The position numbers were made by a program, and so were the translations under genes. A stretch of DNA of 47,470 nucleotides from IMG/VR virus record IMGVR_UViG_3300045988_055181, positions 1 through 47,470 of that record. One strand, 5' to 3'. Under the pieces are notes generated by a model. The model was not told the origin of the DNA. It searched no databases and saw only the letters and a program-made list of their open reading frames with translations. The stretch is from a virus. How positions within the stretch are numbered: position 1 is the stretch's first letter; every line of letters starts with the position of its first letter. Positions 3,817-36,706 of the stretch are shown here, one piece after another.

Positions 3817-3839
3817 AGCAAGAGGAAGGAGTGAACAGA

Positions 3840-4265
3840 ATGAGCACAAGAATAGCCGACGCTCGCAAAGCCATAGGTATGACGCAACGGACTTTAGCAG
3901 AAAAACTCGGGATTGCAGCAAGTACATTAAACGGCTATGAGAAGGGAAATCACAAGCCGGATTCGGATGTACTGATCGCAGTATCATCTATAACAGGATG
4001 TACCATAGATTATCTGTTGAACCGGGTCGATGGATTCCACGACTATTACGGCAAAGAAAAAGCCCCTGCCCCGGCCAAAGCCGAAACAGGGGAAGTAACT
4101 GCAGAACAGATCATGCAAGCCTTTGTATCAGCAGGATTTGTGCCTGCTGGACAGGATTTGACGGATGAGGATTTACGGTTCCTTCAATCCATCTTTGCAG
4201 CTATCGCAAACTGGTTCGCCAGCCGCGATGCACGATCGGCTGACAGCGACAAAAGCACGCAGTAA
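3840..4265 (+). CDS. CI-like XRE-family repressor (141 aa)
   Basis: N-terminal HTH IGMTQRTLAEKLGIAASTLNGYEKG plus a C-terminal extension. Position is typical for a lysogeny repressor. Confidence 0.8.
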   Translation: MSTRIADARKAIGMTQRTLAEKLGIAASTLNGYEKGNHKPDSDVLIAVSSITGCTIDYLLNRVDGFHDYYGKEKAPAPAKAETGEVTAEQIMQAFVSAGFVPAGQDLTDEDLRFLQSIFAAIANWFASRDARSADSDKSTQ

Positions 4266-6868: not shown

Positions 6869-8047
6869 ATGCCACGTCGAAAAAAAGACCCTCGCGGATT
6901 TGTCCGCGAGACCGGAACGTATATGGGAAAGCACTACGACCTGAGAGCAAAAACCGAAAAGGAACTCAACGAGAAAATCAGGGCAAAACGCGCAGAAATC
7001 GAATCCGGAAGTAAACTCATTGAAGCCGGTGTTACCGTAAAGGAATGGGGAAAACGCTGGGTAGAAACCTACAAGTCCGGCGTGAAGGAATCCACGCGAA
7101 GGCTGATTGAGGGACGGCTTGTGAACTACGTCTATCCCTACATTGGGGATATCCCCGTTAGCAAAGTGCGGCCGCTGAACTGTCAGGAAGCGCTTAACTC
7201 TGCGGAAGGACGTGCGCCGGACACCGTAAAGAAGGTGCAGCAGGCAATCGAGCAGATGTTCCGCGCAGCCAAGCAGAACGGCTTGTGCGTCAATAATCCT
7301 GCGGAAGATTTGAAAATGCCCCGTACTGGCAAGCAGACGAGCCACAGGAGCATTACAGACCGCGAACGTGTTATTTTACTGGAAACTGCAAAGACGCATA
7401 CTGCGGGGCCGTGGGTGCTTACTCTGCTGTATAGTGGCTTGCGTCCGGCGGAAAGCCTTGTGCTGACATACGCCGATATTACAGGCGGTATGATTACTGT
7501 TGACAAGGCGTACGACCGGGACACCCGCGCCGAGAAATACCCCAAGTCAGACGCAGGCGTTCGCAAAATCCCGATCATCCCCCAGCTTGCCGCAGTCCTG
7601 CCGAAAGCCGGTTCGTTCGGTGAATTGGTTTTTCCGCGTAACGGGCACTTGTACGATGATAAGTCCATGCGTGCCATGTGGCAGGGTTTCCGCGCCGCTA
7701 TGGATGATACCGAACGTGAGTTGATCGCGGCGGGGAAAATCTCACCCATTGCCGAGCAGCTGCCGCCTATCGTTCCCTACGATCTGCGCCACACGTTCTG
7801 CACAGATTTAGAGCGCGCGGGCGTACCGCTCAACGTCGCAAGCAAACTCATGGGACACGCATCTATCGAGATTACCGCCAAGATTTACACGCATACCGGC
7901 GAGGATATGATCGAGCGTGCAGGTGAGCAATTAGCCGCCTTGTTCAGTCCCACATTTAGTCCCATTAACGAAGTGCAAAAAACGCCTATGGCTGACATTA
8001 TGCGAGAGCTGCAAGAACTTCGTGCAGCAGTGCTCAAAGCCGTATAA
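6869..8047 (+). CDS. int: tyrosine site-specific integrase
   Basis: C-terminal catalytic region ...YDLRHTFCTDLERAGVPLNVASKLMGHASIEITAKIYTHT (R, HxxR and Y motifs). Confidence 0.9.
   Translation: MPRRKKDPRGFVRETGTYMGKHYDLRAKTEKELNEKIRAKRAEIESGSKLIEAGVTVKEWGKRWVETYKSGVKESTRRLIEGRLVNYVYPYIGDIPVSKVRPLNCQEALNSAEGRAPDTVKKVQQAIEQMFRAAKQNGLCVNNPAEDLKMPRTGKQTSHRSITDRERVILLETAKTHTAGPWVLTLLYSGLRPAESLVLTYADITGGMITVDKAYDRDTRAEKYPKSDAGVRKIPIIPQLAAVLPKAGSFGELVFPRNGHLYDDKSMRAMWQGFRAAMDDTERELIAAGKISPIAEQLPPIVPYDLRHTFCTDLERAGVPLNVASKLMGHASIEITAKIYTHTGEDMIERAGEQLAALFSPTFSPINEVQKTPMADIMRELQELRAAVLKAV
7944..7964. promoter_or_regulatory. pair of putative arm-type integrase sites T(C/T)AGTCCCA, 12 bp apart
   Basis: Copies at 7944-7952 and 7956-7964. 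The same 9-mer pair occurs at 8208-8228 on the other side of the core. Confidence 0.45.
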
Positions 8048-27341: not shown

Positions 27342-27452
27342 GTGTGTACTCCTTTCAGATTAGGCGTTTTAGGTGGTCGCCGTCACCGATCTGCCTGCAC
27401 TTTTAGGCTTGCAGGATAGCCAATTTCCGTAGTTTAATGCCGTTGCGGGCAT

Positions 27453-27474
27453 GAAAAAAGCGCCTTTCGGCGCT
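27453..27474 (-). terminator. intrinsic terminator AGCGCC-GAAA-GGCGCT followed by U6 (minus sense)
   Basis: Direct reading. Lies between the portal-proximal small gene and the scaffold gene. Confidence 0.65.
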
Positions 27475-27745: not shown

Positions 27746-29164
27746 TCATTTCTCGTCATCTATTAGCTTTTCAGCACCCGGCATCATTGCTCTTGCTTCT
27801 TCCTCGGTTACGCCGTACTTCTTTGCAATGTACAGCTCGCCTCGAATAAGACCGGCAGAAACGTCATTGCGCATATCCGCAAGTTCTTTCTGCTTGCTCT
27901 CGGTGTCCTGCACAACGCCGTCTCCCCAATCGCACTGCAAGTCCCAATCACCAGCAGGTGCAAGACCGTAAAGCGTGGTGTATACGTCCATGCCGTACAA
28001 CAGGCCGTTCAGAGCGTGTTCAAGTGCCGCCTGCGTATCCCTCACAGTGACGTACATTGTCTGCTTACTGGATACGATCTCGGTTGCGGTTGCGTTTACC
28101 GTCTGCGGGTCAGACAGCGTTCCGAAAGACAAGCCGCAGTTCAGCTCGATCATCTTCAATGTGTCTTGGAAGCCTTTGTATAGCGCATCGTTGCGGAATT
28201 CCGGCGAAAACTCCTGATAGAAGTCTACGTCTTCAAACGGCATCCGGCGGAACATACGGTCACGGAGCAGCGGGTTCGTGTGCGATAGTCCGTGCTCATC
28301 TACAACGCGCTGCGGAATCGCAGAATCACTCATCAGGATACGGCGTTCGCCGCTTTCATATTCCCACATGAGACGTTCCCACTGCTGGTCAGCCTGCCGG
28401 ATGAGGTCAACTGCTGCGCCGCTGTAAAGCGACACACCGAGTGGACTTTCCGGCTCGATGTTGTTTGCAATCGGCACCTTGAAAAAACCGAAAAGCGGGC
28501 GTTCTACGTTCTGAATCGTCGTTTCCGGCGCAATCTGTGCCCAGTCCTCTACAGTATTCAGCGGTACTTCCGAGCCGATACTACCGTTCTTGTCGGAGTT
28601 GTACGCCTTGTTCTTGATGGTGTACACGCCGCTTTTCAGTTCGTGGTACTCCAATTTGGTATAATATCGGTTCTTTTCTCGCTTGGTATCCGCGAATACT
28701 GCTGCTGTGATCTCTCCGTTGCTGTCAACGCTGACCGGGTACGCGCTGCCGACTGTGTTAAAGTCCACAAGCACACGGTTCTCTGATACAAACGGCTTGT
28801 AGAAGAAACCGCCGACCGAGAGACCCTTTTCAACGTCAATTCGCATGTGTGGAATCATACCGCGCAGGCTTTCGTTTAGGAATTCTGCTCGTGCGCCGCC
28901 ATCAACAGTGATGGTGCTTTCAATGGTGGTTGGGCGTGCTACTGCTCGGCAGATAGCCGACGGCAGACCGCAAGACGTAACATTCCGGTTGCCGTGCTGA
29001 CCGAGCCACTCGGCATCGTCCATATACATCCGTCGCCACAGGTCAATGTTTGACTGCATCGTGGAATCATAGACCGCCGTCGCCCCTGTCAGTTCTTCAA
29101 TTTTGTTTGCCGGAATCATTGCTTGCCTCACCGCCTTTATTAACTGCTTCAACCGTTCAAACAT
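27746..29164 (-). CDS. portal protein (SPP1 gp6-like)
   Basis: 472 aa, directly downstream of terL with an overlap. Confidence 0.8.
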   Translation of the reverse strand: MFERLKQLIKAVRQAMIPANKIEELTGATAVYDSTMQSNIDLWRRMYMDDAEWLGQHGNRNVTSCGLPSAICRAVARPTTIESTITVDGGARAEFLNESLRGMIPHMRIDVEKGLSVGGFFYKPFVSENRVLVDFNTVGSAYPVSVDSNGEITAAVFADTKREKNRYYTKLEYHELKSGVYTIKNKAYNSDKNGSIGSEVPLNTVEDWAQIAPETTIQNVERPLFGFFKVPIANNIEPESPLGVSLYSGAAVDLIRQADQQWERLMWEYESGERRILMSDSAIPQRVVDEHGLSHTNPLLRDRMFRRMPFEDVDFYQEFSPEFRNDALYKGFQDTLKMIELNCGLSFGTLSDPQTVNATATEIVSSKQTMYVTVRDTQAALEHALNGLLYGMDVYTTLYGLAPAGDWDLQCDWGDGVVQDTESKQKELADMRNDVSAGLIRGELYIAKKYGVTEEEARAMMPGAEKLIDDEK

Positions 29165-30437
29165 TCACAAGCCCCCTTGCTCTAACCTCTCGGCGCACTA
29201 TCGTCTGGAAGTAATAGCGTGATGTGTCCATATCATGGTCGAATTTCTTGATGACCGCATCTTCGGGGGATTTATCGTCCCACATATACATGCCGAATTC
29301 GTCGATTGCCCCGGTACAGCTTGCATTGTACTGTGCATAACCAGCAGCAAGCAGCGTTCCCATCAGGCGGATACCGTCAAGCACGCTGTTGTCTGCGTCA
29401 CGCACACGGAATTTACCGTGTCTGCGGATTGTTTCCTTGAACGATGCAGCCGAGGGGTCAATAATGATCGCCTCGATATACTGACCACCAACGAACGTTT
29501 CAAGATCGGCGTAGTATTCCTCATCTGTTTTCTGTTTCTTCTCCTTGCGGCTGTCGTGCCGATACGCACGCACGCAAGTTGATTTGCAGGTCATTTCATC
29601 AAACCGCCAAAGCTGGAACACGGTCGGGTTAATCGTGCCGTAGTCACAGGCCACAAACCAGCGATTGCCGGAACCTTCACCATCCGTAACGTGCAGTTCG
29701 GTCGAGAACATAGGATAAACCAGACCCTCTGCAACACGTCGCATACCGAGGATATCACGCTGATACCAGATGCTCTTGCGGTCGTATGTCGCAAGGATTT
29801 CTTTCAAGCGTTCATCCGATACGGAAAGGTTGTCTGCAATGGTGAAATGTCCGTAGTTGAAACCGTAGTTTGGGTTCTCCCGCTGCTTCTCCATATGGAA
29901 GTTGAGCACGTCTGTGTAGTACGGGTGGTTCTCGCCCTTCGGGTTAAGATCGTGATAAATGCCACGGTCGCCGCTCGTCATGGTACGGTCAAAGACTTCC
30001 TGAACAAACTTCGGGTGACACTCGTTCGCCTCAGTAATATACGCAAGGCCGTAGGTGTTGCCCTTGATGTTCTTCTCGTCACCGTCTTTACGGCCGCCGG
30101 AAACGAGCACGATCTTCTCGCCTACCGGAGTTCGCACATAAATGCAATCGCGATTCTGATACTTGCCTACCCGACAGTTTTTCTCGCCAAAGTAGTTAAT
30201 CATGCCGTATCCGTCGCAATCGATGATATTCAGCATCGCCGATGCAGTGGACACGCCCGCAATCAGGTGGAAGCGATTCGGGTGCTTTTCCAATCGAGCG
30301 CAAAACGCCGTTGTTTGCAATACGTTCTTACCGCCACGTTTTCCGCCCTCAGCCACGTTGAACCAGCTATGAAGCGAACGATAGAAGTAATCCACTTGCT
30401 TCTTTGTAAAGGGTGCGGGGATATTATCCATCTTCAA
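29157..30437 (-). CDS. terL: terminase large subunit
   Basis: 426 aa. Walker-A-like segment AEGGKRGGKN. C-terminal nuclease-type region. Position. Confidence 0.85.
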   Translation of the reverse strand: MKMDNIPAPFTKKQVDYFYRSLHSWFNVAEGGKRGGKNVLQTTAFCARLEKHPNRFHLIAGVSTASAMLNIIDCDGYGMINYFGEKNCRVGKYQNRDCIYVRTPVGEKIVLVSGGRKDGDEKNIKGNTYGLAYITEANECHPKFVQEVFDRTMTSGDRGIYHDLNPKGENHPYYTDVLNFHMEKQRENPNYGFNYGHFTIADNLSVSDERLKEILATYDRKSIWYQRDILGMRRVAEGLVYPMFSTELHVTDGEGSGNRWFVACDYGTINPTVFQLWRFDEMTCKSTCVRAYRHDSRKEKKQKTDEEYYADLETFVGGQYIEAIIIDPSAASFKETIRRHGKFRVRDADNSVLDGIRLMGTLLAAGYAQYNASCTGAIDEFGMYMWDDKSPEDAVIKKFDHDMDTSRYYFQTIVRREVRARGLVNV

Positions 30438-32332: not shown

Positions 32333-32403
32333 ATAACAGCACCTCCTAACGATAGCTATTATACGCCTCATATATATTTGTGTAAATATACACAATCCAC
32401 AAA

Positions 32404-32738: not shown

Positions 32739-32751
32739 GGAGGTAACTACA

Positions 32752-32862
32752 ATGGCCGCAACGCTCAACCCCATGTGCATCAACTGCGCCAAACTCAACA
32801 AAAGCTGTAACGGCACGACAAACCAAGTATGGACTGGCTGTATCTACAAGGAGGTAAAGTAA
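32752..32862 (+). CDS. 36-aa Cys-containing peptide
   Basis: AAGGAGG RBS. Sequence MAATLNPMCINCAKLNKSCNGTTNQVWTGCIYKEVK. Confidence 0.45.
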   Translation: MAATLNPMCINCAKLNKSCNGTTNQVWTGCIYKEVK

Positions 32863-32863
32863 A

Positions 32864-33058
32864 ATGATGAATTTCGAACTGACCCGCGGTGATAGCCTCT
32901 GTGTAACAATGGCGCTGACAACAGTTATCTGTAATCTGATCAGGGAGCAGGAAGACCCGAACACCACCGCCGATCGGCGGGAGGTAGTCGAGGAAAGCAT
33001 TGAGATGTACAAGCGGATACGCGCAGAAATCAGAGATCAGCGCAACGCACAAGAATAA
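32864..33058 (+). CDS. hypothetical protein (64 aa)
   Basis: AAGGAGG RBS. Confidence 0.55.
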   Translation: MMNFELTRGDSLCVTMALTTVICNLIREQEDPNTTADRREVVEESIEMYKRIRAEIRDQRNAQE

Positions 33059-33120
33059 CGGTTCTCGCGGGTTCACCCTTAAAGCCCGCACCCATAAATT
33101 TTAATTTGGAGGTACACACC

Positions 33121-33321
33121 ATGACTTACACCTACGAGATCGAGCGCCGCATCTGCACTGAGTTCTGCAACAAGTACTCATTCGCCCACTGTGAAAGCTG
33201 TCCGCTTTACAAGGCGTGCTGTGGATTTGAGAACGACATGAGCAAGACCACCGAGGAGAACGAAAGACGCTTTGAAGCCGGACTTGTAAACGCCCTCGCC
33301 GCTTACGACGCACAGCACTAG
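33121..33321 (+). CDS. Cys-rich small protein (66 aa)
   Basis: GGAGG RBS. Starts MTYTYEIERRICTEFCNKYSFAHCESCPLYKACCGF... Confidence 0.55.
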   Translation: MTYTYEIERRICTEFCNKYSFAHCESCPLYKACCGFENDMSKTTEENERRFEAGLVNALAAYDAQH

Positions 33322-33375
33322 CGGAACATATCAAAAATACTTTTACGCAAAAGTATTAACTTCCGCATAAAAGTA

Positions 33376-33404
33376 TTGACTTTCGTGTAAAAGTTTGCTA
33401 TAAT
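33376..33404 (+). promoter_or_regulatory. consensus sigma70 promoter TTGACT-17-TATAAT overlapped by AAAAGTATT repeats
   Basis: -35 at 33376-33381, -10 at 33399-33404. The palindrome AATACTTTT-ACGC-AAAAGTATT and two further AAAAGT(A/T)TT copies lie just upstream or overlapping. Confidence 0.65.
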
Positions 33405-33448
33405 AAAAATACAGAAAGAGATAAGACACAAAGCAGGAGGTAATTATT

Positions 33449-34138
33449 ATGTTAGCAACTCTCACTCTGTTCTGCGAGCCAGCCGAACGCCTCGACGAAG
33501 CAAAATCCACGCCGAACTATCCCGTCAAAAAGTATGACGCTTTTGTCGTTACCGAGGACAGCGTGGAATCCGACCGTCAGGTCGGTAGACTTGGTTGGAG
33601 CACCTACGGCGGCTCTATTGCCTTGCGGCGTGTCCTTATCGAGATACCGGAAGGTGTGCATTACGGCCGCTGCAATTTCGGCGGCTATCATAGTACGGGG
33701 ATGGAATACTACGGCGACTACGACGCGCACGACGGCAATCTTTGCTTAGTGCCTGTCACTGTCGGCAAGCCTGCCAGCCTGCGCGAGCACGGCGAAAACC
33801 TCGAAGCCGCATTCGATGCCGCGATTGATTCCGGTATCTTTTTCTCCATCCCGAACGAGGACGGCGGCCGACACACGGAACGCGCCCACATTTACAAGGT
33901 CGGCGAGGTCATGGATAAGGCACACGGCGATAAATGGCCAAAAGGCAAAATCTCCGTTGCAGATATCCGCGAAGCCGCAGGCTTAACCCAGCAGCAGCTT
34001 GCAGACGTGACCGGCATCCAGCTGCAAACCTTGCAGCAGATCGAAGCCGGTAAGATCACCGCCTACGAGGCAGGCGAGAATTACCGCGAGAAGATCGCCG
34101 AAGCGCTGAACTTTTACGACTATCAGAGTATTTTCTAA
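33449..34138 (+). CDS. two-domain protein: unknown N-terminal domain plus C-terminal XRE-type HTH (229 aa)
   Basis: C-terminal ISVADIREAAGLTQQQLADVTGIQLQTLQQIEAGK. Confidence 0.65.
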   Translation: MLATLTLFCEPAERLDEAKSTPNYPVKKYDAFVVTEDSVESDRQVGRLGWSTYGGSIALRRVLIEIPEGVHYGRCNFGGYHSTGMEYYGDYDAHDGNLCLVPVTVGKPASLREHGENLEAAFDAAIDSGIFFSIPNEDGGRHTERAHIYKVGEVMDKAHGDKWPKGKISVADIREAAGLTQQQLADVTGIQLQTLQQIEAGKITAYEAGENYREKIAEALNFYDYQSIF

Positions 34139-34159
34139 TCTCGAAAGGAGCACCCAACA

Positions 34160-34609
34160 ATGAATAAAGTAATCCGCGGCAAGCGCTACAACACAGAGAC
34201 CGCGAAGCTGGTTGGCACGTGGGAAGCCAACGAGCCGGAAAACTCAGACTTCTGGGAAAAGGAAGAACTCTACCAGAAGCGAAGCGGCGAATTCTTCCTG
34301 ATCGGTCAAGGCGGCGCACAAACGCAGTATGCACGTTTTTCTATGAGCGGCGAAAGTAAGCCGGGCATTGAACTCCGTCCGATCGAGCCGGAAGAAGCGT
34401 CTGACTGGGCCGAGGAACATCTCACGGCCGATGAATACGAAGCACTTTTCGGGCCGGTTGCCGAGGATGGCAGCCGCGGCCGCATTACTCTAACACTGCT
34501 CAACTCCACCATTGACACCGTGCGCCGCGAAGCGCAGCGTCGAAAAATGAATTTTAACGAGTACCTCGAGAAGCTGATCGCTCAGCAGATGAAGGAGGAC
34601 CAGAAATGA
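34160..34609 (+). CDS. hypothetical protein with a C-terminal RHH-like segment (149 aa)
   Basis: Starts MNKVIRGKRYNTETAKLVG...GEFFLIGQGGAQTQYA... C-terminal ITLTLLNSTIDTVRREAQRRKMNFNEYLEKLI. Confidence 0.6.
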   Translation: MNKVIRGKRYNTETAKLVGTWEANEPENSDFWEKEELYQKRSGEFFLIGQGGAQTQYARFSMSGESKPGIELRPIEPEEASDWAEEHLTADEYEALFGPVAEDGSRGRITLTLLNSTIDTVRREAQRRKMNFNEYLEKLIAQQMKEDQK

Positions 34610-34887
34610 AAGTTCAGTTATTCTCCACGCCTTCCGCGTATCCCGCGTATTATCTCCGCTTGAAAGATGGCGTTTACGATCGAGTAAACGCATTCCCCGC
34701 TCCTTGTACCGCACCGGGAACGCCGATCGACCAGCGCTATGCACGCGCAATCGACAAAGACAGATATTTTCCGGTTATCACCTCATCGCATGACGGATAT
34801 ATCTTTTTCGGTCTGCCGGAAGGTGCCGAAGTTTACACCGCAGCCGAGGTGGCCGCCATTGACCGCCCGAACCGCGTCAAAGAATAA
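34606..34887 (+). CDS. hypothetical protein (93 aa)
   Basis: ATGA coupling. Last gene of the plus-strand island. Confidence 0.55.
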   Translation: MKVQLFSTPSAYPAYYLRLKDGVYDRVNAFPAPCTAPGTPIDQRYARAIDKDRYFPVITSSHDGYIFFGLPEGAEVYTAAEVAAIDRPNRVKE

Positions 34888-34904
34888 AATACCTTGTTTC
34901 TCTA

Positions 34905-34950
34905 TGACAAACCCCGCTCACCAAAGCCATAAGGTGAGCGGGGTTTGTCA
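34905..34950. terminator. 18-bp-stem hairpin TGACAAACCCCGCTCACC/GGTGAGCGGGGTTTGTCA
   Basis: Direct reading. Closes the plus-strand island and borders the ORF-free locus. Confidence 0.65.
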
Positions 34951-36033
34951 TTATACGACTGTTTCGGTTTTGCAGGACTCGCACCCGCTTTCAGCCACTA
35001 TGCAAACCGGTATACCTCCACAGGGAGGTATGAACGCTATCGTCGCGTCTGTACGTCGGGCTTTTACCGAGGCTTGCGCCGCTGTCCAGAACGGTTTGTA
35101 TGAAATCCAGAGAGGTAATAACCTCACTTTCGCAAGTTTACTTGTGTTCCGTCCTGTGTGATTAGGTATGCCTATCGCAAGAGATAAACAGGCTGGTGCT
35201 CTTTCGCGGCGTGTACTTAGCCGCCCGAAAGCGCCATATCGGCTTTGTTCGCGCCGGTTGTTTTGCTCTCGGCTCACTAAGTCCGTGTGAGTGCTTATCC
35301 GGGCAGCACTCGCCCTCTCATTATGGGCTGTTCGGCGTTGCTCTCCGTCGTGTCGCAGTTGCTATCGGTCTGTAATCCGGCTGATTCCCTCGTAAGGTTA
35401 CAGCGGGGAGCGACCCCGGTTGCGGCGTGCCTGCAAGCACCCGCTGAACTCTGCAAAGCCGTTGCAGCAGCTTCACAGGCGTTCGGAAACAGATTGTCCG
35501 TCTTTCCGGACCGCCAGAATATTATCGTCCTCGTTGGAGGCGTTGCGCTCCCTCTGCCTCATGCAGCTTCGGGAGCAGATCACCTTGCACGTTGTCCACC
35601 ATGCAAGGCTTGCCAAAAGTCCGCTACGTTACCCGTCCGGCTTCATGCAGCCATCCGGGCATGTTTGCGGTGTCTGTTGCCCGCAGACACCGCACTCCAT
35701 TCTCAATTTTTTAGCGTGAATGTTATTACTCCGTCACCCTCATGCAGGCTTCGGAGCATATCGGCGTGCCGCGCAAAAGACACGCCGAAAGAATAGAAAG
35801 GATAATCAATGCCTTCGTTCCGCGAAAGGCGTCTTGCTCCTCTGCCCTCATGCAGACTTTGGAGCAGGTCAGCGGCAGGTCTCCCCACCGCTTTAAGTAG
35901 GTATTTGGGGTTAAACAGAAAGGCTTGTCACCCGTCAGCCCTCACGCAGGCTTCCGGGCGTGTACCCGCCTTTCGGCGGGCTGAAAGCGGAGGAACGAAA
36001 CTCCGTGATTCCGCCCTTTAGGGCTTTTATCAC
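34951..36033 (-). ncRNA. candidate large structured ncRNA locus (strand tentative)
   Basis: About 1.1 kb without a credible ORF in an otherwise gap-free genome. At least 20 local hairpins, five covarying motif copies, and an extended -10 promoter at its minus-strand 5' edge. Confidence 0.45.
35537..35960 (-). repeat. five dispersed-tandem copies of a 30-32-nt hairpin motif with an apical UGCRUGAR loop
   Basis: Copies at 35537-35566, 35630-35661, 35728-35757, 35835-35866 and 35929-35960. Details are in the findings. Confidence 0.75.
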
Positions 36034-36039
36034 GATATC

Positions 36040-36069
36040 ATTATACCACCATTCTTTGTAGTATTGTGT
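36040..36069 (-). promoter_or_regulatory. extended -10 promoter TGgTATAAT (minus strand)
   Basis: The + strand reads ATTATACCA at 36040-36048. The -35 is weak. It lies just after the stop of the 36088 gene. Confidence 0.45.
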
Positions 36070-36087
36070 AGCCCGTTTTCCACAATG

Positions 36088-36360
36088 TTATGCACAGCCT
36101 GTGCGTATATGTTCTACTGCCCGTAATGCCCGTGCGTGCATCTTTCCGCGAACGTGCACTTCGTTGTAATTCATTCTCTCGGCGGTCTCTCTCCACGTTC
36201 TACCGTTCACGTAATGTTCGATCAGCAGCGCCCGCAGCGCCGCATCCTGTACCTTAGCCGTTGTGCTGATAATCTCGGCCTTAATCAGTGCAAGCCGTTC
36301 CTGCTCTCGCTGTATCTTCTCGGACAGGGCAAGATACGCATCCGCCTTGTTTGCGGTCAC
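36088..36360 (-). CDS. sigma-70 region-4-like phage transcriptional regulator (90 aa)
   Basis: Sequence ALLIEHYVNGRTWRETAERMNYNEVHVRGKMHARALRAVE. GTG start. Confidence 0.5.
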   Translation of the reverse strand: MTANKADAYLALSEKIQREQERLALIKAEIISTTAKVQDAALRALLIEHYVNGRTWRETAERMNYNEVHVRGKMHARALRAVEHIRTGCA

Positions 36361-36490
36361 GTCACCGCCGCCGCCCGGCGTGTCCTTGATCGTCGCTGTT
36401 GCGCTTGTCGCCCGCGTCCACGCCCTTACTCGTGCTTCTTCCAGTGCAGAGATTGATTTTTCAAGGTCAATCCCTCGTCTGAGCCATTCT

Positions 36491-36706
36491 TTAGTCGTCG
36501 TGCGCCACTACCTCCTCCGTACCGTGTTGTGTATATCGCCTACGACGGCTTATTCTCGCCGCCTTGCGGACGCAACCTACACCCGGTTCACATCCGCGCG
36601 ATTTCCCCGTGTCGATCAAATAATGACGCGCCCATAGCTTAGGGCCTTGGCTTGTACCCAGTACCCGCCAGTATGCGCACCCAGCGCATTCGCTTTTCTT
36701 TTTCAT
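36491..36706 (-). CDS. Cys-rich small protein (71 aa)
   Basis: Starts MKKKSECAGCAYWRVLG...HYLIDTGKSRGCEPGVGC. Confidence 0.55.
   Translation of the reverse strand: MKKKSECAGCAYWRVLGTSQGPKLWARHYLIDTGKSRGCEPGVGCVRKAARISRRRRYTQHGTEEVVAHDD

What the first reader, a model, noticed from the sequence alone, without database searches (positions are those of the whole stretch)
34951..36087. 1.1-kb ORF-free, hairpin-dense locus between convergent operons: candidate large structured phage ncRNA
Genes elsewhere in this genome abut or overlap, and the next largest gap is about 420 nt. Here about 1,137 nt carry no ORF with an RBS or plausible composition. The track ORFs (35287-35796+, 35420-35719+, 35703-35888-) are low-complexity and lack an RBS.

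The tract is GC-rich and packed with perfect local helices:
- TACCTCC/GGAGGTA (35012-35029)
- CTGCAA/TTGCAG (35451-35467)
- CGGAAA/TTTCCG (35484-35508)
- CCTTGCA/TGCAAGG (35582-35607)
- GCGGTGTCTG/CAGACACCGC (35667-35693)
- CGGCGTG/CACGCCG (35762-35787)
- CCCGCC/GGCGGG (35965-35980)
- CGGAG/CTCCG (35988-36006)

It is bracketed by an 18-bp-stem hairpin (34905-34950) and by a sigma-like regulator gene plus an extended -10 promoter (36040-36048). Large ornate RNAs of unknown function (the ROOL and GOLLD classes) are known to reside in Firmicutes prophages. This could be a member of such a class or a new one. I cannot tell from memory.
Basis: partly seen in the sequence, partly recalled or inferred. 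Interest (0 to 1): 0.85.

Follow-up and report, generated by a model that had tools for sequence, protein, structure and literature searches.

The report
New modular structured RNA in gut phages
The 1.1-kb "empty" stretch is a gene for a large, highly folded non-coding RNA carrying five copies of one conserved hairpin; it matches no catalogued RNA family, recurs at the same spot in many human-gut phages, and its function is still unknown.

Summary

Window 34900-36033 encodes a non-coding RNA of about 1.13 kb on the minus strand. It starts at an extended -10 promoter (TGGTATAAT, 36040-36048) and ends at the 19-bp hairpin (34904-34951).

There is no conserved ORF, and substitutions show no codon periodicity (22/23/22, against 7/2/43 in a flanking gene).

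The RNA is modular:
- a 5' clamp hairpin;
- five tandem modules, each a stable variable hairpin followed by a conserved two-tier hairpin (purine-rich internal loop, U-G closing pair, GCRYGA loop);
- a GAAAGA hairpin;
- a 3' core of about 580 nt.

Covariation is strong in both the repeated hairpin and the core. G-U pairs far outnumber A-C mismatches (101:3 and 69:12), which fixes the strand.

I found 61 distinct complete relatives in human-gut phages, 0.83-1.15 kb long, with 2-5 hairpin copies by a strict scan. All sit directly after a zinc-ribbon/arginine-rich gene and a sigma-region-4-like regulator gene, and on the same strand as the late genes where these could be checked.

No Rfam 15 family matches, so it is not ROOL or GOLLD.

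The function is inferred only. I favour a multivalent protein- or RNA-polymerase-binding platform in late-transcription control. A trans-acting decoy is nearly as likely.

The parts
36040..36048 (-). Extended -10 promoter TGGTATAAT of the RNA. No clear -35 element. Inferred transcription start near 36033.
   Evidence: Exact match. The same element (TGGTATAAT, TGATATACT, TGATACAAT, TGGTATACT; L404 has a plain TATAAT without the TG) sits at the same place in all related loci. Promoter function itself is inferred.
34900..36033 (-). The non-coding RNA, about 1.13 kb. Both ends are inferred from the promoter and the terminator hairpin.
   Evidence: No conserved ORF and no codon periodicity. 87-99.8% identical over the full length in about 70 loci. 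RNAalifold predicts 265 pairs. G-U far exceeds A-C in the paired cells.
36004..36035 (-). 5' clamp hairpin: outer helix CGUGAU/AUCACG enclosing GCCC-UAAA-GGGC.
   Evidence: Compensatory variants occur in divergent relatives: CGUGG/CCACG with GCUCC/GGAGC (L053), UGUGG/CCACG with GCAC/GUGC (L426), UGUGAA/UUCAC with GCCCC/GGGGC (L430).
35925..35964 (-). Conserved two-tier hairpin, copy 1 in RNA order: CGCCCG-GA-AGCCU-GCGUGA-GGGCU-GA-CGGGUG.
   Evidence: Covariance model R1, 50.2 bits.
35831..35870 (-). Conserved two-tier hairpin, copy 2: UGCUCC-AAA-GUCU-GCAUGA-GGGC-AGA-GGAGCA.
   Evidence: R1, 52.7 bits.
35723..35762 (-). Conserved two-tier hairpin, copy 3: UGCUCCG-AA-GCCU-GCAUGA-GGGU-GA-CGGAGUA.
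   Evidence: R1, 52.7 bits.
35626..35665 (-). Conserved two-tier hairpin, copy 4: UGCCCG-GA-UGGCU-GCAUGA-AGCCG-GA-CGGGUA.
   Evidence: R1, 51.8 bits.
35542..35581 (-). Conserved two-tier hairpin, copy 5: UGCUCCC-GAA-GCU-GCAUGA-GGC-AGA-GGGAGCG.
   Evidence: R1, 46.3 bits. The next best hit anywhere in the window scores 15 bits.
35965..35980 (-). Variable hairpin of module 1 (CCCGCC-GAAA-GGCGGG), 3-5 nt upstream of its conserved hairpin.
35871..35892 (-). Variable hairpin of module 2 (AGCGGUGGG-GAGA-CCUGCCGCU).
35762..35787 (-). Variable hairpin of module 3 (CGGCGUG...CACGCCG).
35667..35693 (-). Variable hairpin of module 4 (GCGGUGUCUG...CAGACACCGC).
35582..35608 (-). Variable hairpin of module 5 (CCUUGCAUG...GUGCAAGG).
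35496..35511 (-). Second conserved hairpin type: GUCCG-GAAAGA-CGGAC. Present in 2-3 copies in some relatives.
   Evidence: Compensatory switch GUCCG/CGGAC to GCUCG/CGAGC, 21 against 13 sequences. Conserved in all RNA classes.
34952..35527 (-). Conserved 3' core domain. It holds many helices, including GGGGUCGCUCCCC, ACCGAUAG...GUGACACGACGGA, CAUACCUCC/GGAGGUAU and CGGUUU/AAACCG.
   Evidence: 135 predicted pairs, 35 with changes on both sides in 8 diverse sequences. 94.5% of cells paired against 87.3% in shuffles. 35 covarying pairs against 15.5+-2.6 in shuffles (0 of 500 reach it). Slid controls give 8-11 pairs.
34904..34951 (-). 19-bp terminator hairpin at the RNA's 3' end. In this window it is shared, back to back, with the reverse-oriented module.
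   Evidence: A-U to G-C and G-C to G-U changes in L282 keep it paired in the RNA sense. At the same position classes B, D and E carry canonical intrinsic terminators.
36088..36504 (-). Context: regulator of about 135 aa with a sigma-region-4-like C-terminal domain, directly upstream of the RNA in every relative.
   Evidence: phrog_36, E 2e-12. Weak Sigma70_r4 and Phage_antitermQ hits. Foldseek matches ECF sigma region 4, TM 0.65-0.79 normalised to target length. Synteny.
36491..36706 (-). Context: 71-aa protein with CxxC...Cx5C followed by an arginine-rich tail. Conserved directly upstream of the regulator and overlapping it.
   Evidence: Alignment of six divergent homologues: C7, C10, C39 and C45 invariant, followed by an RRRR tract.

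Best explanation
Window ~36033 to ~34900 (minus strand) is a gene for a structured non-coding RNA of about 1.13 kb, of a family not yet catalogued.

Shown:
- It is non-coding and conserved.
- It folds into a 5' clamp hairpin, then five tandem modules, then a GAAAGA hairpin and a covarying 3' core of about 580 nt. It is bounded by an extended -10 promoter and a terminator hairpin.
- Each module is a stable, sequence-variable hairpin followed 3-5 nt later by a conserved two-tier hairpin. That hairpin has a 5-7 bp outer stem, a purine-rich internal loop (GA/GA, AAA/AGA), a 3-5 bp inner stem, a U-G closing pair and the loop GCRYGA.
- It always lies directly after a zinc-ribbon/arginine-rich protein gene and a sigma-region-4-like regulator gene. 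Where the late genes could be located it is on their strand.

Inferred mechanism:
- The repeated hairpins are multivalent binding sites, held out on rigid variable stems. They would bind either the co-encoded small basic proteins or the host RNA polymerase and its elongation factors.
- The RNA would then be the RNA half of the phage's late-transcription control unit. This resembles nut, put, conAn2 and canT RNAs and the lambda Q-PR'-6S-tR' unit.
- Without the partner, transcription stops at the terminator and yields the discrete RNA. With the partner, polymerase reads on towards the late genes.

My confidence that this is a genuine structured RNA on the minus strand is about 0.9. My confidence in the late-transcription platform mechanism is about 0.35-0.4.
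For: Non-coding.

Five hairpin copies, all on the minus strand, 46-53 bits against 15 bits for the next best hit.

Hairpin covariation, 49 distinct copies:
- 96.7% of cells paired against 82% in shuffles.
- 71 cells changed on both sides against 28 in shuffles; no shuffle reaches either observed value.
- Slid controls give 32-51% paired.

Strand: G-U to A-C is 101:3 in the hairpins and 69:12 in the core.

Core covariation. Whole-RNA covariation within class A.

Promoter. Terminators at the 3' end.

Fixed order of zinc-ribbon gene, regulator gene, RNA, even where the regulator is only 62-70% identical (L403, L404, L426, L430) and in class B, where the upstream zinc-ribbon protein is 44% identical to the window's.

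In L282 the RNA is followed directly by terS on the same strand. In L053 terS is preceded by an intrinsic terminator with no promoter between them, so this phage group needs read-through.

A single module sits inside an early operon of an unrelated AT-rich phage, downstream of a strong promoter and the first gene. That fits a cis-acting element.

Precedents for large antiterminator RNAs next to small protein genes in Gram-positive mobile elements: conAn1/conAn2 (PMC8191782) and canT, 452 nt (PMC11658703).
Against: No expression or binding data exist; promoter, ends and partner are all inferred.

In most relatives, including this window, a reverse-oriented accessory module lies between the RNA's terminator and the late genes. 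It spans roughly 32750-34887, from its leftmost small + strand ORF read. Read-through would have to run antisense across about 2.1 kb.

A good sigma-70-type promoter lies at 32358-32386 on the minus strand, at the head of the late genes, so these may not need upstream transcription.

The regulator resembles sigma region 4, not a Q antiterminator.

Terminator-like sites in the late operon are not enriched over shuffles.

The unrelated phage with one module shares no detectable protein with this phage in the 6-15 kb held. If a protein partner exists it may be a host factor.

The copy number of the hairpin varies (2-5 by strict scan). That fits a decoy at least as well.
Confidence: 0.4

Rival explanations
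1. A trans-acting decoy or scaffold RNA. The 2-6 identical-type hairpins soak up or organise several copies of one RNA-binding protein, as CsrB/RsmZ do for CsrA or repeat-mimic RNAs do for Cas proteins. The protein could be a host factor, a defence protein or the phage's own regulator. The RNA would be a stand-alone product ending at its terminator.
For: It has its own promoter and a conserved, often canonical, terminator.

Reverse-oriented genes follow the terminator in most relatives.

The copy number of the hairpin varies between close relatives, from 2 to 5.

The hairpins are insulated by stable variable stems.

The site just downstream is an accessory hot spot that in L403 carries an AcrVA2-like gene.
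Against: No partner has been identified.

The loops lack the GGA motif of CsrA sponges.

The strict co-orientation and adjacency with the regulator genes, and the single module embedded in an mRNA of an unrelated phage, are not explained by a free decoy.

The large conserved 3' core is not needed for a simple sponge.
Confidence: 0.28
2. A precursor that is cut at or near each conserved hairpin into several small RNAs of about 100 nt, or an mRNA processing and stability element. The hairpin would be the constant handle for a host ribonuclease, as with RNase III sites between the early genes of T7 and SP82.
For: The layout is regular and modular, with a spacing of 83-115 nt.

A single module lies in an intergenic spacer of an operon in an unrelated phage.

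The variable parts evolve faster than the constant hairpin.
Against: The stems total 9-12 bp, which is shorter than classical RNase III substrates (my own knowledge).

The variable parts show no complementarity to the phage genome beyond chance: the longest match is 13 nt, the same as in shuffles.

The conserved 3' core is unexplained.
Confidence: 0.12
3. A self-assembling 'ornate' RNA like ROOL or GOLLD, whose near-palindromic loops (CAUG, CGCG, CGUG) form loop-loop contacts within or between molecules.
For: Its size, phage location and multi-helix architecture fit. CAUG and CGCG are self-complementary, and CGUG is so with G-U wobbles. ROOL and GOLLD form RNA-only cages (PMC12286853).
Against: No Rfam match.

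The loop CACG is not self-complementary. It occurs twice in class B RNAs that have no complementary CGUG loop, so loop pairing does not covary.

The only long-range inverted repeat, 34985-34996 with 35979-35990, is broken by one-sided changes.
Confidence: 0.08
4. Not an RNA. It would be a DNA-level feature (packaging site, origin, protein-binding repeats, REP-like elements) or a decaying repeat-protein gene on the + strand.
For: It lies between the regulator and the terminase region, where cos/pac sites often lie (my own knowledge).

The + strand carries long ORFs in many relatives, up to 269 aa.

The hairpin motif translates in one frame to a recurring P-H-A-x-x-G-A peptide.
Against: The stem halves change in a compensatory way rather than keeping one sequence, which is not how a DNA-binding protein site evolves.

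G-U to A-C is 101:3 and 69:12 on one strand only.

There is no codon periodicity, and ORF position and length are not conserved.

Frameshifts of 91 and 94 nt separate the repeat copies.
Confidence: 0.04

Closest known systems
ROOL and GOLLD (also OLE, raiA, HEARO): large ornate bacterial and prophage RNAs
   Same: It is more than 0.8 kb, non-coding, phage-borne, built of many helices with covariation, and of unknown function.
   Different: It has no sequence or structure homology: no Rfam 15 hit at gathering score or at E<=10. Its architecture is beads-on-a-string with a repeated hairpin module rather than one compact fold. It is restricted so far to one lineage of human-gut temperate phages.
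Processive antitermination RNAs: HK022 put, Bacillus EAR, pLS20 conAn2 (with the protein ConAn1), Tn916 canT
   Same: It is a structured RNA placed just downstream of a promoter and of a small regulatory gene, at the head of a long operon of a mobile element, with terminators downstream. The module of two adjacent hairpins recalls put. Its size is comparable to the larger examples (canT is 452 nt, PMC11658703; the conAn2 region is about 300 bp, PMC8191782).
   Different: It is much larger and has 2-6 repeated modules. It shares no sequence with any of them. Read-through activity has not been tested. A reverse-oriented module often separates it from the late genes.
Lambda late control unit (Q gene, PR' promoter, 6S RNA, tR' terminator) and nut sites (boxA/boxB with N)
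   Same: The order is the same: regulator gene, promoter, terminated leader RNA, late genes. A small arginine-rich protein is encoded next to hairpins with purine-rich loops.
   Different: The regulator has a sigma-region-4 fold, not a Q fold. The RNA is 1.1 kb and under strong structural selection, whereas lambda 6S is about 190 nt (my own knowledge). The hairpin is unlike boxB.
Multi-hairpin protein sponges (CsrB/RsmZ) and repeat RNAs (ToxI antitoxin, RNA anti-CRISPRs)
   Same: Several copies of one hairpin type sit on one transcript, and the copy number varies between relatives.
   Different: There are no GGA loops. The units are 83-115 nt with variable parts, not 34-36-nt near-identical repeats. 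There is no toxin or Cas gene nearby. Any resemblance to host CRISPR repeats could not be tested.

Membership tests
ROOL (Rfam) | Match to the family covariance model | tested here: not met
   cmscan of the whole window at gathering score finds only GP20-b, elsewhere. The gap at E<=10 gives only noise. The same holds for the class B homologue.
GOLLD, HEARO, OLE, raiA (Rfam) | Match to the family covariance model | tested here: not met
Large structured non-coding RNA (as a general kind) | No conserved ORF and no codon-position substitution pattern | tested here: met
Large structured non-coding RNA (as a general kind) | Base pairs kept through compensatory changes, above controls | tested here: met
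   Hairpin. 3' core. Class A full length.
Large structured non-coding RNA (as a general kind) | A stable transcript with defined ends | not testable with these tools
   Only a conserved extended -10 promoter and terminator hairpins are seen.
Processive antitermination RNA (put, EAR, conAn2, canT) | Promoter-proximal and on the same strand as a long downstream operon that contains terminators | tested here: inconclusive
   On the same strand as the late genes where these could be located (window, L053, L106, L282). terS follows directly in L282. A terminator sits immediately before terS in L053. But reverse modules intervene in most loci, and a separate promoter lies at 32358-32386.
Processive antitermination RNA (put, EAR, conAn2, canT) | Causes read-through of downstream terminators in cis | not testable with these tools
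   Needs a reporter assay.
Lambda nut site | boxA plus a boxB hairpin (5-bp stem, GNRA-like pentaloop) bound by an N protein | tested here: not met
   The hairpin is two-tier with a GCRYGA hexaloop. Only loose boxA-like pyrimidine tracts were seen by eye.
CsrB/RsmZ-type sponge | Many GGA motifs in hairpin loops | tested here: not met
   The loops are GCAUGA, GCGUGA, GCACGA or GCGCGA.
Type III antitoxin (ToxI-like) | Near-identical tandem repeats of 34-36 nt directly upstream of an endoribonuclease toxin gene | tested here: not met
   Units are 83-115 nt with variable hairpins. No defence or toxin family among the neighbours.
CRISPR array or RNA anti-CRISPR | Identical repeats at constant spacing, or mimicry of the host's CRISPR repeat | tested here: inconclusive
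   It is not an array: the repeats differ and the spacing is irregular. Mimicry could not be tested because the host is unknown. The one I-C repeat sharing the 10-nt core (L305) was selected by the search pattern itself.
Protein-coding gene | An intact ORF conserved in relatives, with third-position bias | tested here: not met

The most novel reading that the evidence does not exclude
This is the founding member of a new class of large modular phage RNA. A conserved core of about 580 nt carries a variable number of 'display' modules. Together with the co-encoded zinc-ribbon/arginine-rich protein and the sigma-region-4-like factor, it forms a ribonucleoprotein switch for late transcription. That would be a phage counterpart of the bipartite conAn system, or a multivalent RNA decoy against a host factor.
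Probability: 0.35. Interest if true: 0.8.

Novelty: new variant of a known kind. Interest (0 to 1): 0.66.

Why it matters
Few large structured RNAs are known in phages, and almost none has a known function.

This one is common in human-gut viromes. I found it in more than 100 IMG/VR contigs, in Hadza and other gut assemblies, and in one prophage on a 288-kb bacterial contig.

It has a clear modular design and a fixed genetic partner set, which makes it experimentally tractable. It gives a concrete test of whether Gram-positive phages use RNA-based or RNA-plus-protein control of late transcription, as conjugative elements do. The alternative it would test is whether they carry multivalent RNA decoys.

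The repeated two-tier hairpin (GCRYGA loop, U-G closing pair, purine-rich internal loop) is itself a new portable RNA motif that can be searched for elsewhere.

Tried and rejected
1. Genome-collection scan with a two-core pattern. The pattern was too unspecific for 596 Gb. No genuine hairpin array was found among the 120 returned loci.

2. Metagenome scan with a three-core pattern. Only 9 of 119 rows are real: 6 class A and 3 class B, and the named ones are human-gut assemblies. The rest are unrelated tandem repeats and a CRISPR array. No new class was found.

3. The 12-nt perfect long-range inverted repeat, 34985-34996 with 35979-35990. Rejected: one-sided changes break it, and its 3' arm sits in a local covarying hairpin.

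4. Antisense targets in the phage. The longest complementarity is 13 nt, equal to shuffles.

5. Coding potential, including the recurring P-H-A-x-x-G-A peptide on the + strand. Rejected by the absence of periodicity and by frameshifts between copies.

6. Resemblance to the sarcin-ricin loop, a tRNA minihelix or anticodon arm, a K-turn, an ANTAR substrate or a Cas12a/Cas13d repeat. I considered these by eye and dropped them, because the shared parts lie in stem positions that covary freely.

7. Type I-C CRISPR repeat mimicry. The only match was selected by my own pattern, so it stays a weak lead.

8. A shared protein between this phage and the unrelated phage carrying one module. None found.

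9. GenBank phages and PLSDB plasmids. No occurrence of the RNA (phages only) or of the hairpin.

10. Viral scans with regulator homologues P0016 and P0013. They returned nothing new.

11. Q-antiterminator fold for the regulator. Not found; the fold is sigma region 4 instead.
Full report
**What is there**

The window is a temperate phage genome. It has a tyrosine recombinase at 6869-8047, a repressor-like gene at 3831-4265 and a terminase large subunit at 29157-30437. The nearest terminase relatives are uncultured human-faecal phages.

The flagged gap lies between two blocks:
- minus-strand early and regulatory genes that end at 36088;
- a + strand module that ends at 34887.

Among 37 distinct relatives they change position and length, and in some the longest is under 110 aa.

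In an alignment that includes the flanking genes, variable sites fall 7/2/43, 8/5/19 and 69/29/30 by codon phase in the three real genes. Inside the gap they fall 22/23/22 and 15/19/13. The gap is therefore non-coding.

The right half of the gap holds five direct copies of a 40-nt element, spaced 84-108 nt apart. I built a covariance model from eleven variants.
- It finds exactly five copies in the 47-kb window, all on the minus strand, at 46-53 bits. The next best hit scores 15 bits.
- It finds 375 copies in 100 sources, 99 related contigs plus the window.

Read in the minus sense each copy is a two-tier hairpin:
- an outer stem of 5-7 bp;
- a symmetric purine-rich internal loop (GA/GA, AAA/AGA, GAA/AGA);
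- an inner stem of 3-5 bp;
- a nearly invariant U-G closing pair;
- the hexaloop GCRYGA, seen as GCAUGA, GCGUGA, GCACGA and GCGCGA.

I tested pairing on 49 distinct copies:

| Measure | Observed | Shuffled | Shuffles reaching observed |
|---|---|---|---|
| Cells forming a standard pair | 96.7% | 82.2% | 0 of 500 |
| Cells changed on both sides | 71 | 28 | 0 of 500 |

Sliding the pairing partner drops pairing to 32-51%. Individual pairs switch freely:
- UA 27, CG 16, UG 6;
- CG 27, GC 18;
- GC 19, CG 16, UG 7, AU 3, UA 3.

This alignment was fitted to the model, so it leans towards the structure. Even so, the slid controls and the many pair types make the hairpin secure.

Each conserved hairpin is preceded, 3-5 nt upstream, by a strong hairpin of unrelated sequence, often with a GNRA or UUCG loop. 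The repeating unit is therefore 'variable hairpin plus conserved hairpin plus linker'.

**Strand and ends**

G-U pairs outnumber A-C mismatches 101:3 in the repeated hairpin and 69:12 in the 3' half. One-sided transitions are thus tolerated only when read on the minus strand.

Folding energy agrees for the module half but not for the other half:

| Region | z, minus strand | z, plus strand |
|---|---|---|
| 35525-36035 (modules) | -7.5 | -4.4 |
| 34952-35524 (3' half) | -3.75 | -4.26 |

For the 3' half the pair statistics decide the strand.

Upstream lies TGGTATAAT at 36040-36048. It is conserved as an extended -10 in nearly every relative (L404 has a plain TATAAT). Next comes a conserved start, GAUAUCGUG, and a clamp hairpin whose two helices change in a compensatory way between classes.

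At the other end sits the 19-bp hairpin at 34904-34951. More distant relatives carry textbook intrinsic terminators at the same position. The inferred RNA is about 1.13 kb, from ~36033 to ~34900.

**The 3' half**

From 35527 down to 34952 the sequence is the best conserved part across classes. RNAalifold on eight diverse sequences predicts 135 pairs, 35 of them with changes on both sides. Controls:
- 94.5% of cells paired, against 87.3% in shuffles;
- 35 covarying pairs, against 15.5+-2.6 in shuffles (0 of 500 reach it);
- 8-11 covarying pairs and about 40% paired when partners are slid.

Clear examples:
- GUCCG/CGGAC switches to GCUCG/CGAGC around a GAAAGA loop.
- GGC-GCAA-GCC, CGG-GAAA-CCG and UGA-GAGA-UCA replace one another.
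- CGGUUU/AAACCG switches to CGGCCCU/AGGGCCG.

The 12-nt long-range inverted repeat seen is not supported.

**Distribution**

The hairpin pattern hits 102 IMG/VR contigs, and the regulator gene finds 58 loci. About 70 loci carry the whole RNA at 87-99.8% identity, with whole modules gained or lost.

Among 61 distinct complete loci a strict scan counts 2-5 hairpins: 3 in 19 loci, 4 in 12 and 5 in 29.

More distant forms:
- Class B (L053 and relatives) is about 970 nt.
- L403, L404, L426 and L430 have regulators only 62-70% identical. Where the end is held, their RNAs range from about 830 nt (L426) to about 1.1 kb (L403), with 2-5 modules.

The real metagenome hits I could attribute are from human gut, including Hadza samples. 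L282 lies on a 288-kb contig, so it is an integrated prophage.

The RNA is absent from GenBank phages, and the hairpin is absent from GenBank phages and PLSDB plasmids. No Rfam 15 family matches any class. Two large catalogues of candidate structured RNAs in microbiomes and phages came up in a literature search. I searched only the main text of the phage one (PMC10690425) and found no mention; I opened neither the supplements nor the other paper (PMC8040213).

**Context**

In every class the RNA directly follows two genes.
- The first is a 70-80-aa protein with invariant CxxC...Cx5C and an arginine-rich tail.
- The second, overlapping the first, is a regulator of about 135 aa (phrog_36, E 2e-12). 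Its C-terminal part models as sigma region 4.

Downstream, the content varies:
- nothing but 150 nt and then terS in L282;
- a reverse-oriented module in this window;
- other reverse modules in L053 and L426;
- a reverse module with an AcrVA2-like gene in L403.

The RNA belongs to the conserved backbone. The spot after its terminator is an insertion hot spot.

One more occurrence is telling. An unrelated AT-rich phage (L027 and relatives) carries a single module in a 125-nt spacer inside an early operon, after a strong promoter and the first small gene. I found no shared proteins in the DNA held.

**How it probably works**

This part is inferred. Several copies of one hairpin, each held on a rigid stem, are the hallmark of a multivalent binding platform. 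Two readings fit.

(a) Part of late-transcription control, acting on the polymerase that makes it. This would resemble nut or put RNAs, or the protein-plus-RNA conAn system and canT of Gram-positive conjugative elements (PMC8191782, PMC11658703).
- For: the fixed order regulator genes, promoter, RNA, terminator; the shared strand with the late genes where these could be located; a terminator with no promoter right before terS in L053; the single module inside an operon of another phage.
- Against: the reverse modules that usually intervene; a separate good promoter at 32358-32386; the sigma-like rather than Q-like fold of the regulator.

(b) A free decoy or scaffold for a protein.
- For: its own terminator, the varying copy number and the neighbouring accessory hot spot.

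I put (a) at about 0.35-0.4 and (b) at about 0.28. Processing into small RNAs is about 0.12, self-assembly about 0.08, and a non-RNA explanation about 0.04.

**Verdict**

This is a new family of large structured phage RNA with an unusual modular build, not a member of any catalogued class. Its function is open but directly testable.

Noticed in passing
window 36480-36510 (minus strand): The regulator's reading frame is open from 36504 and matches phrog_36 from its second residue. It has no ATG, GTG or TTG before 36360. Where class B has ATG ACG GCA AAG, this phage has ACG ACG ACT AAA. The upstream 71-aa ORF ends GAC GAC TAA, overlapping in the -1 frame. The start is therefore either a non-canonical codon or a +1 shift at the stop. 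Gene callers give 90, 118 or 167 aa in relatives.
   Followed up: partly
window 27361-27421 (-) and 27459-27474 (-): An Rfam GP20-b RNA motif (57.6 bits) lies inside the late operon, just downstream of a clean intrinsic terminator (AGCGCCGAAAGGCGCT followed by TTTTT). Both sit between the portal-region gene and the next gene.
   Followed up: no
window ~32750-34887 (+ strand); L403:4853-7013; L053:3414-4433; L426:3750-5074: The site just after the RNA's terminator is an insertion hot spot for reverse-oriented accessory modules that differ between relatives. Here the module holds several small ORFs, a 229-aa protein with a C-terminal HTH, and 149-aa and 93-aa proteins with no family. It has its own strong promoter at 33376-33404. 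In L403 the module contains an AcrVA2-like protein (PF26125). In L282 there is no module.
   Followed up: partly
L027:7454-7530 (also L015, L029, L048, L050, L086): A single module (hairpin GCGGAAGCGCAUAACUUCCGC followed by UGCUCCAAAGUCUGCAUGAGGACAGAGGAGUA) lies in an intergenic spacer of an unrelated AT-rich phage of 80-126 kb. It is 30/32 identical to copy 2 of this window, which suggests recent horizontal transfer of the module.
   Followed up: partly
L106:6497-6530 (also L128, L005, L058 and other class A loci); absent from the window: In relatives without the reverse module, a different hairpin shows the same UGCGUGAG loop (CUCUGAC-G-CGGG-UGCGUGA-GCCGG-GCGGGAG). It lies just after the RNA's terminator, about 340 nt upstream of terS.
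   Followed up: partly
L305 (metagenome contig Ga0272444_10103903): This is a CRISPR array of at least 34 repeats. Its repeat is GTCGCCCCTCGTGCAGGGGCGTGGATTGAAAT, which I recognise as type I-C from my own knowledge. Its reverse complement contains the hairpin core CTGCACGAGG. It was picked up only because the search pattern contained that core.
   Followed up: no
L282:379-765 and 758-1123; L403:2750-3115: The early regions of relatives encode proteins with the Pfam families Sequestin (PF21825) and DUF7694 upstream of the regulator genes.
   Followed up: no
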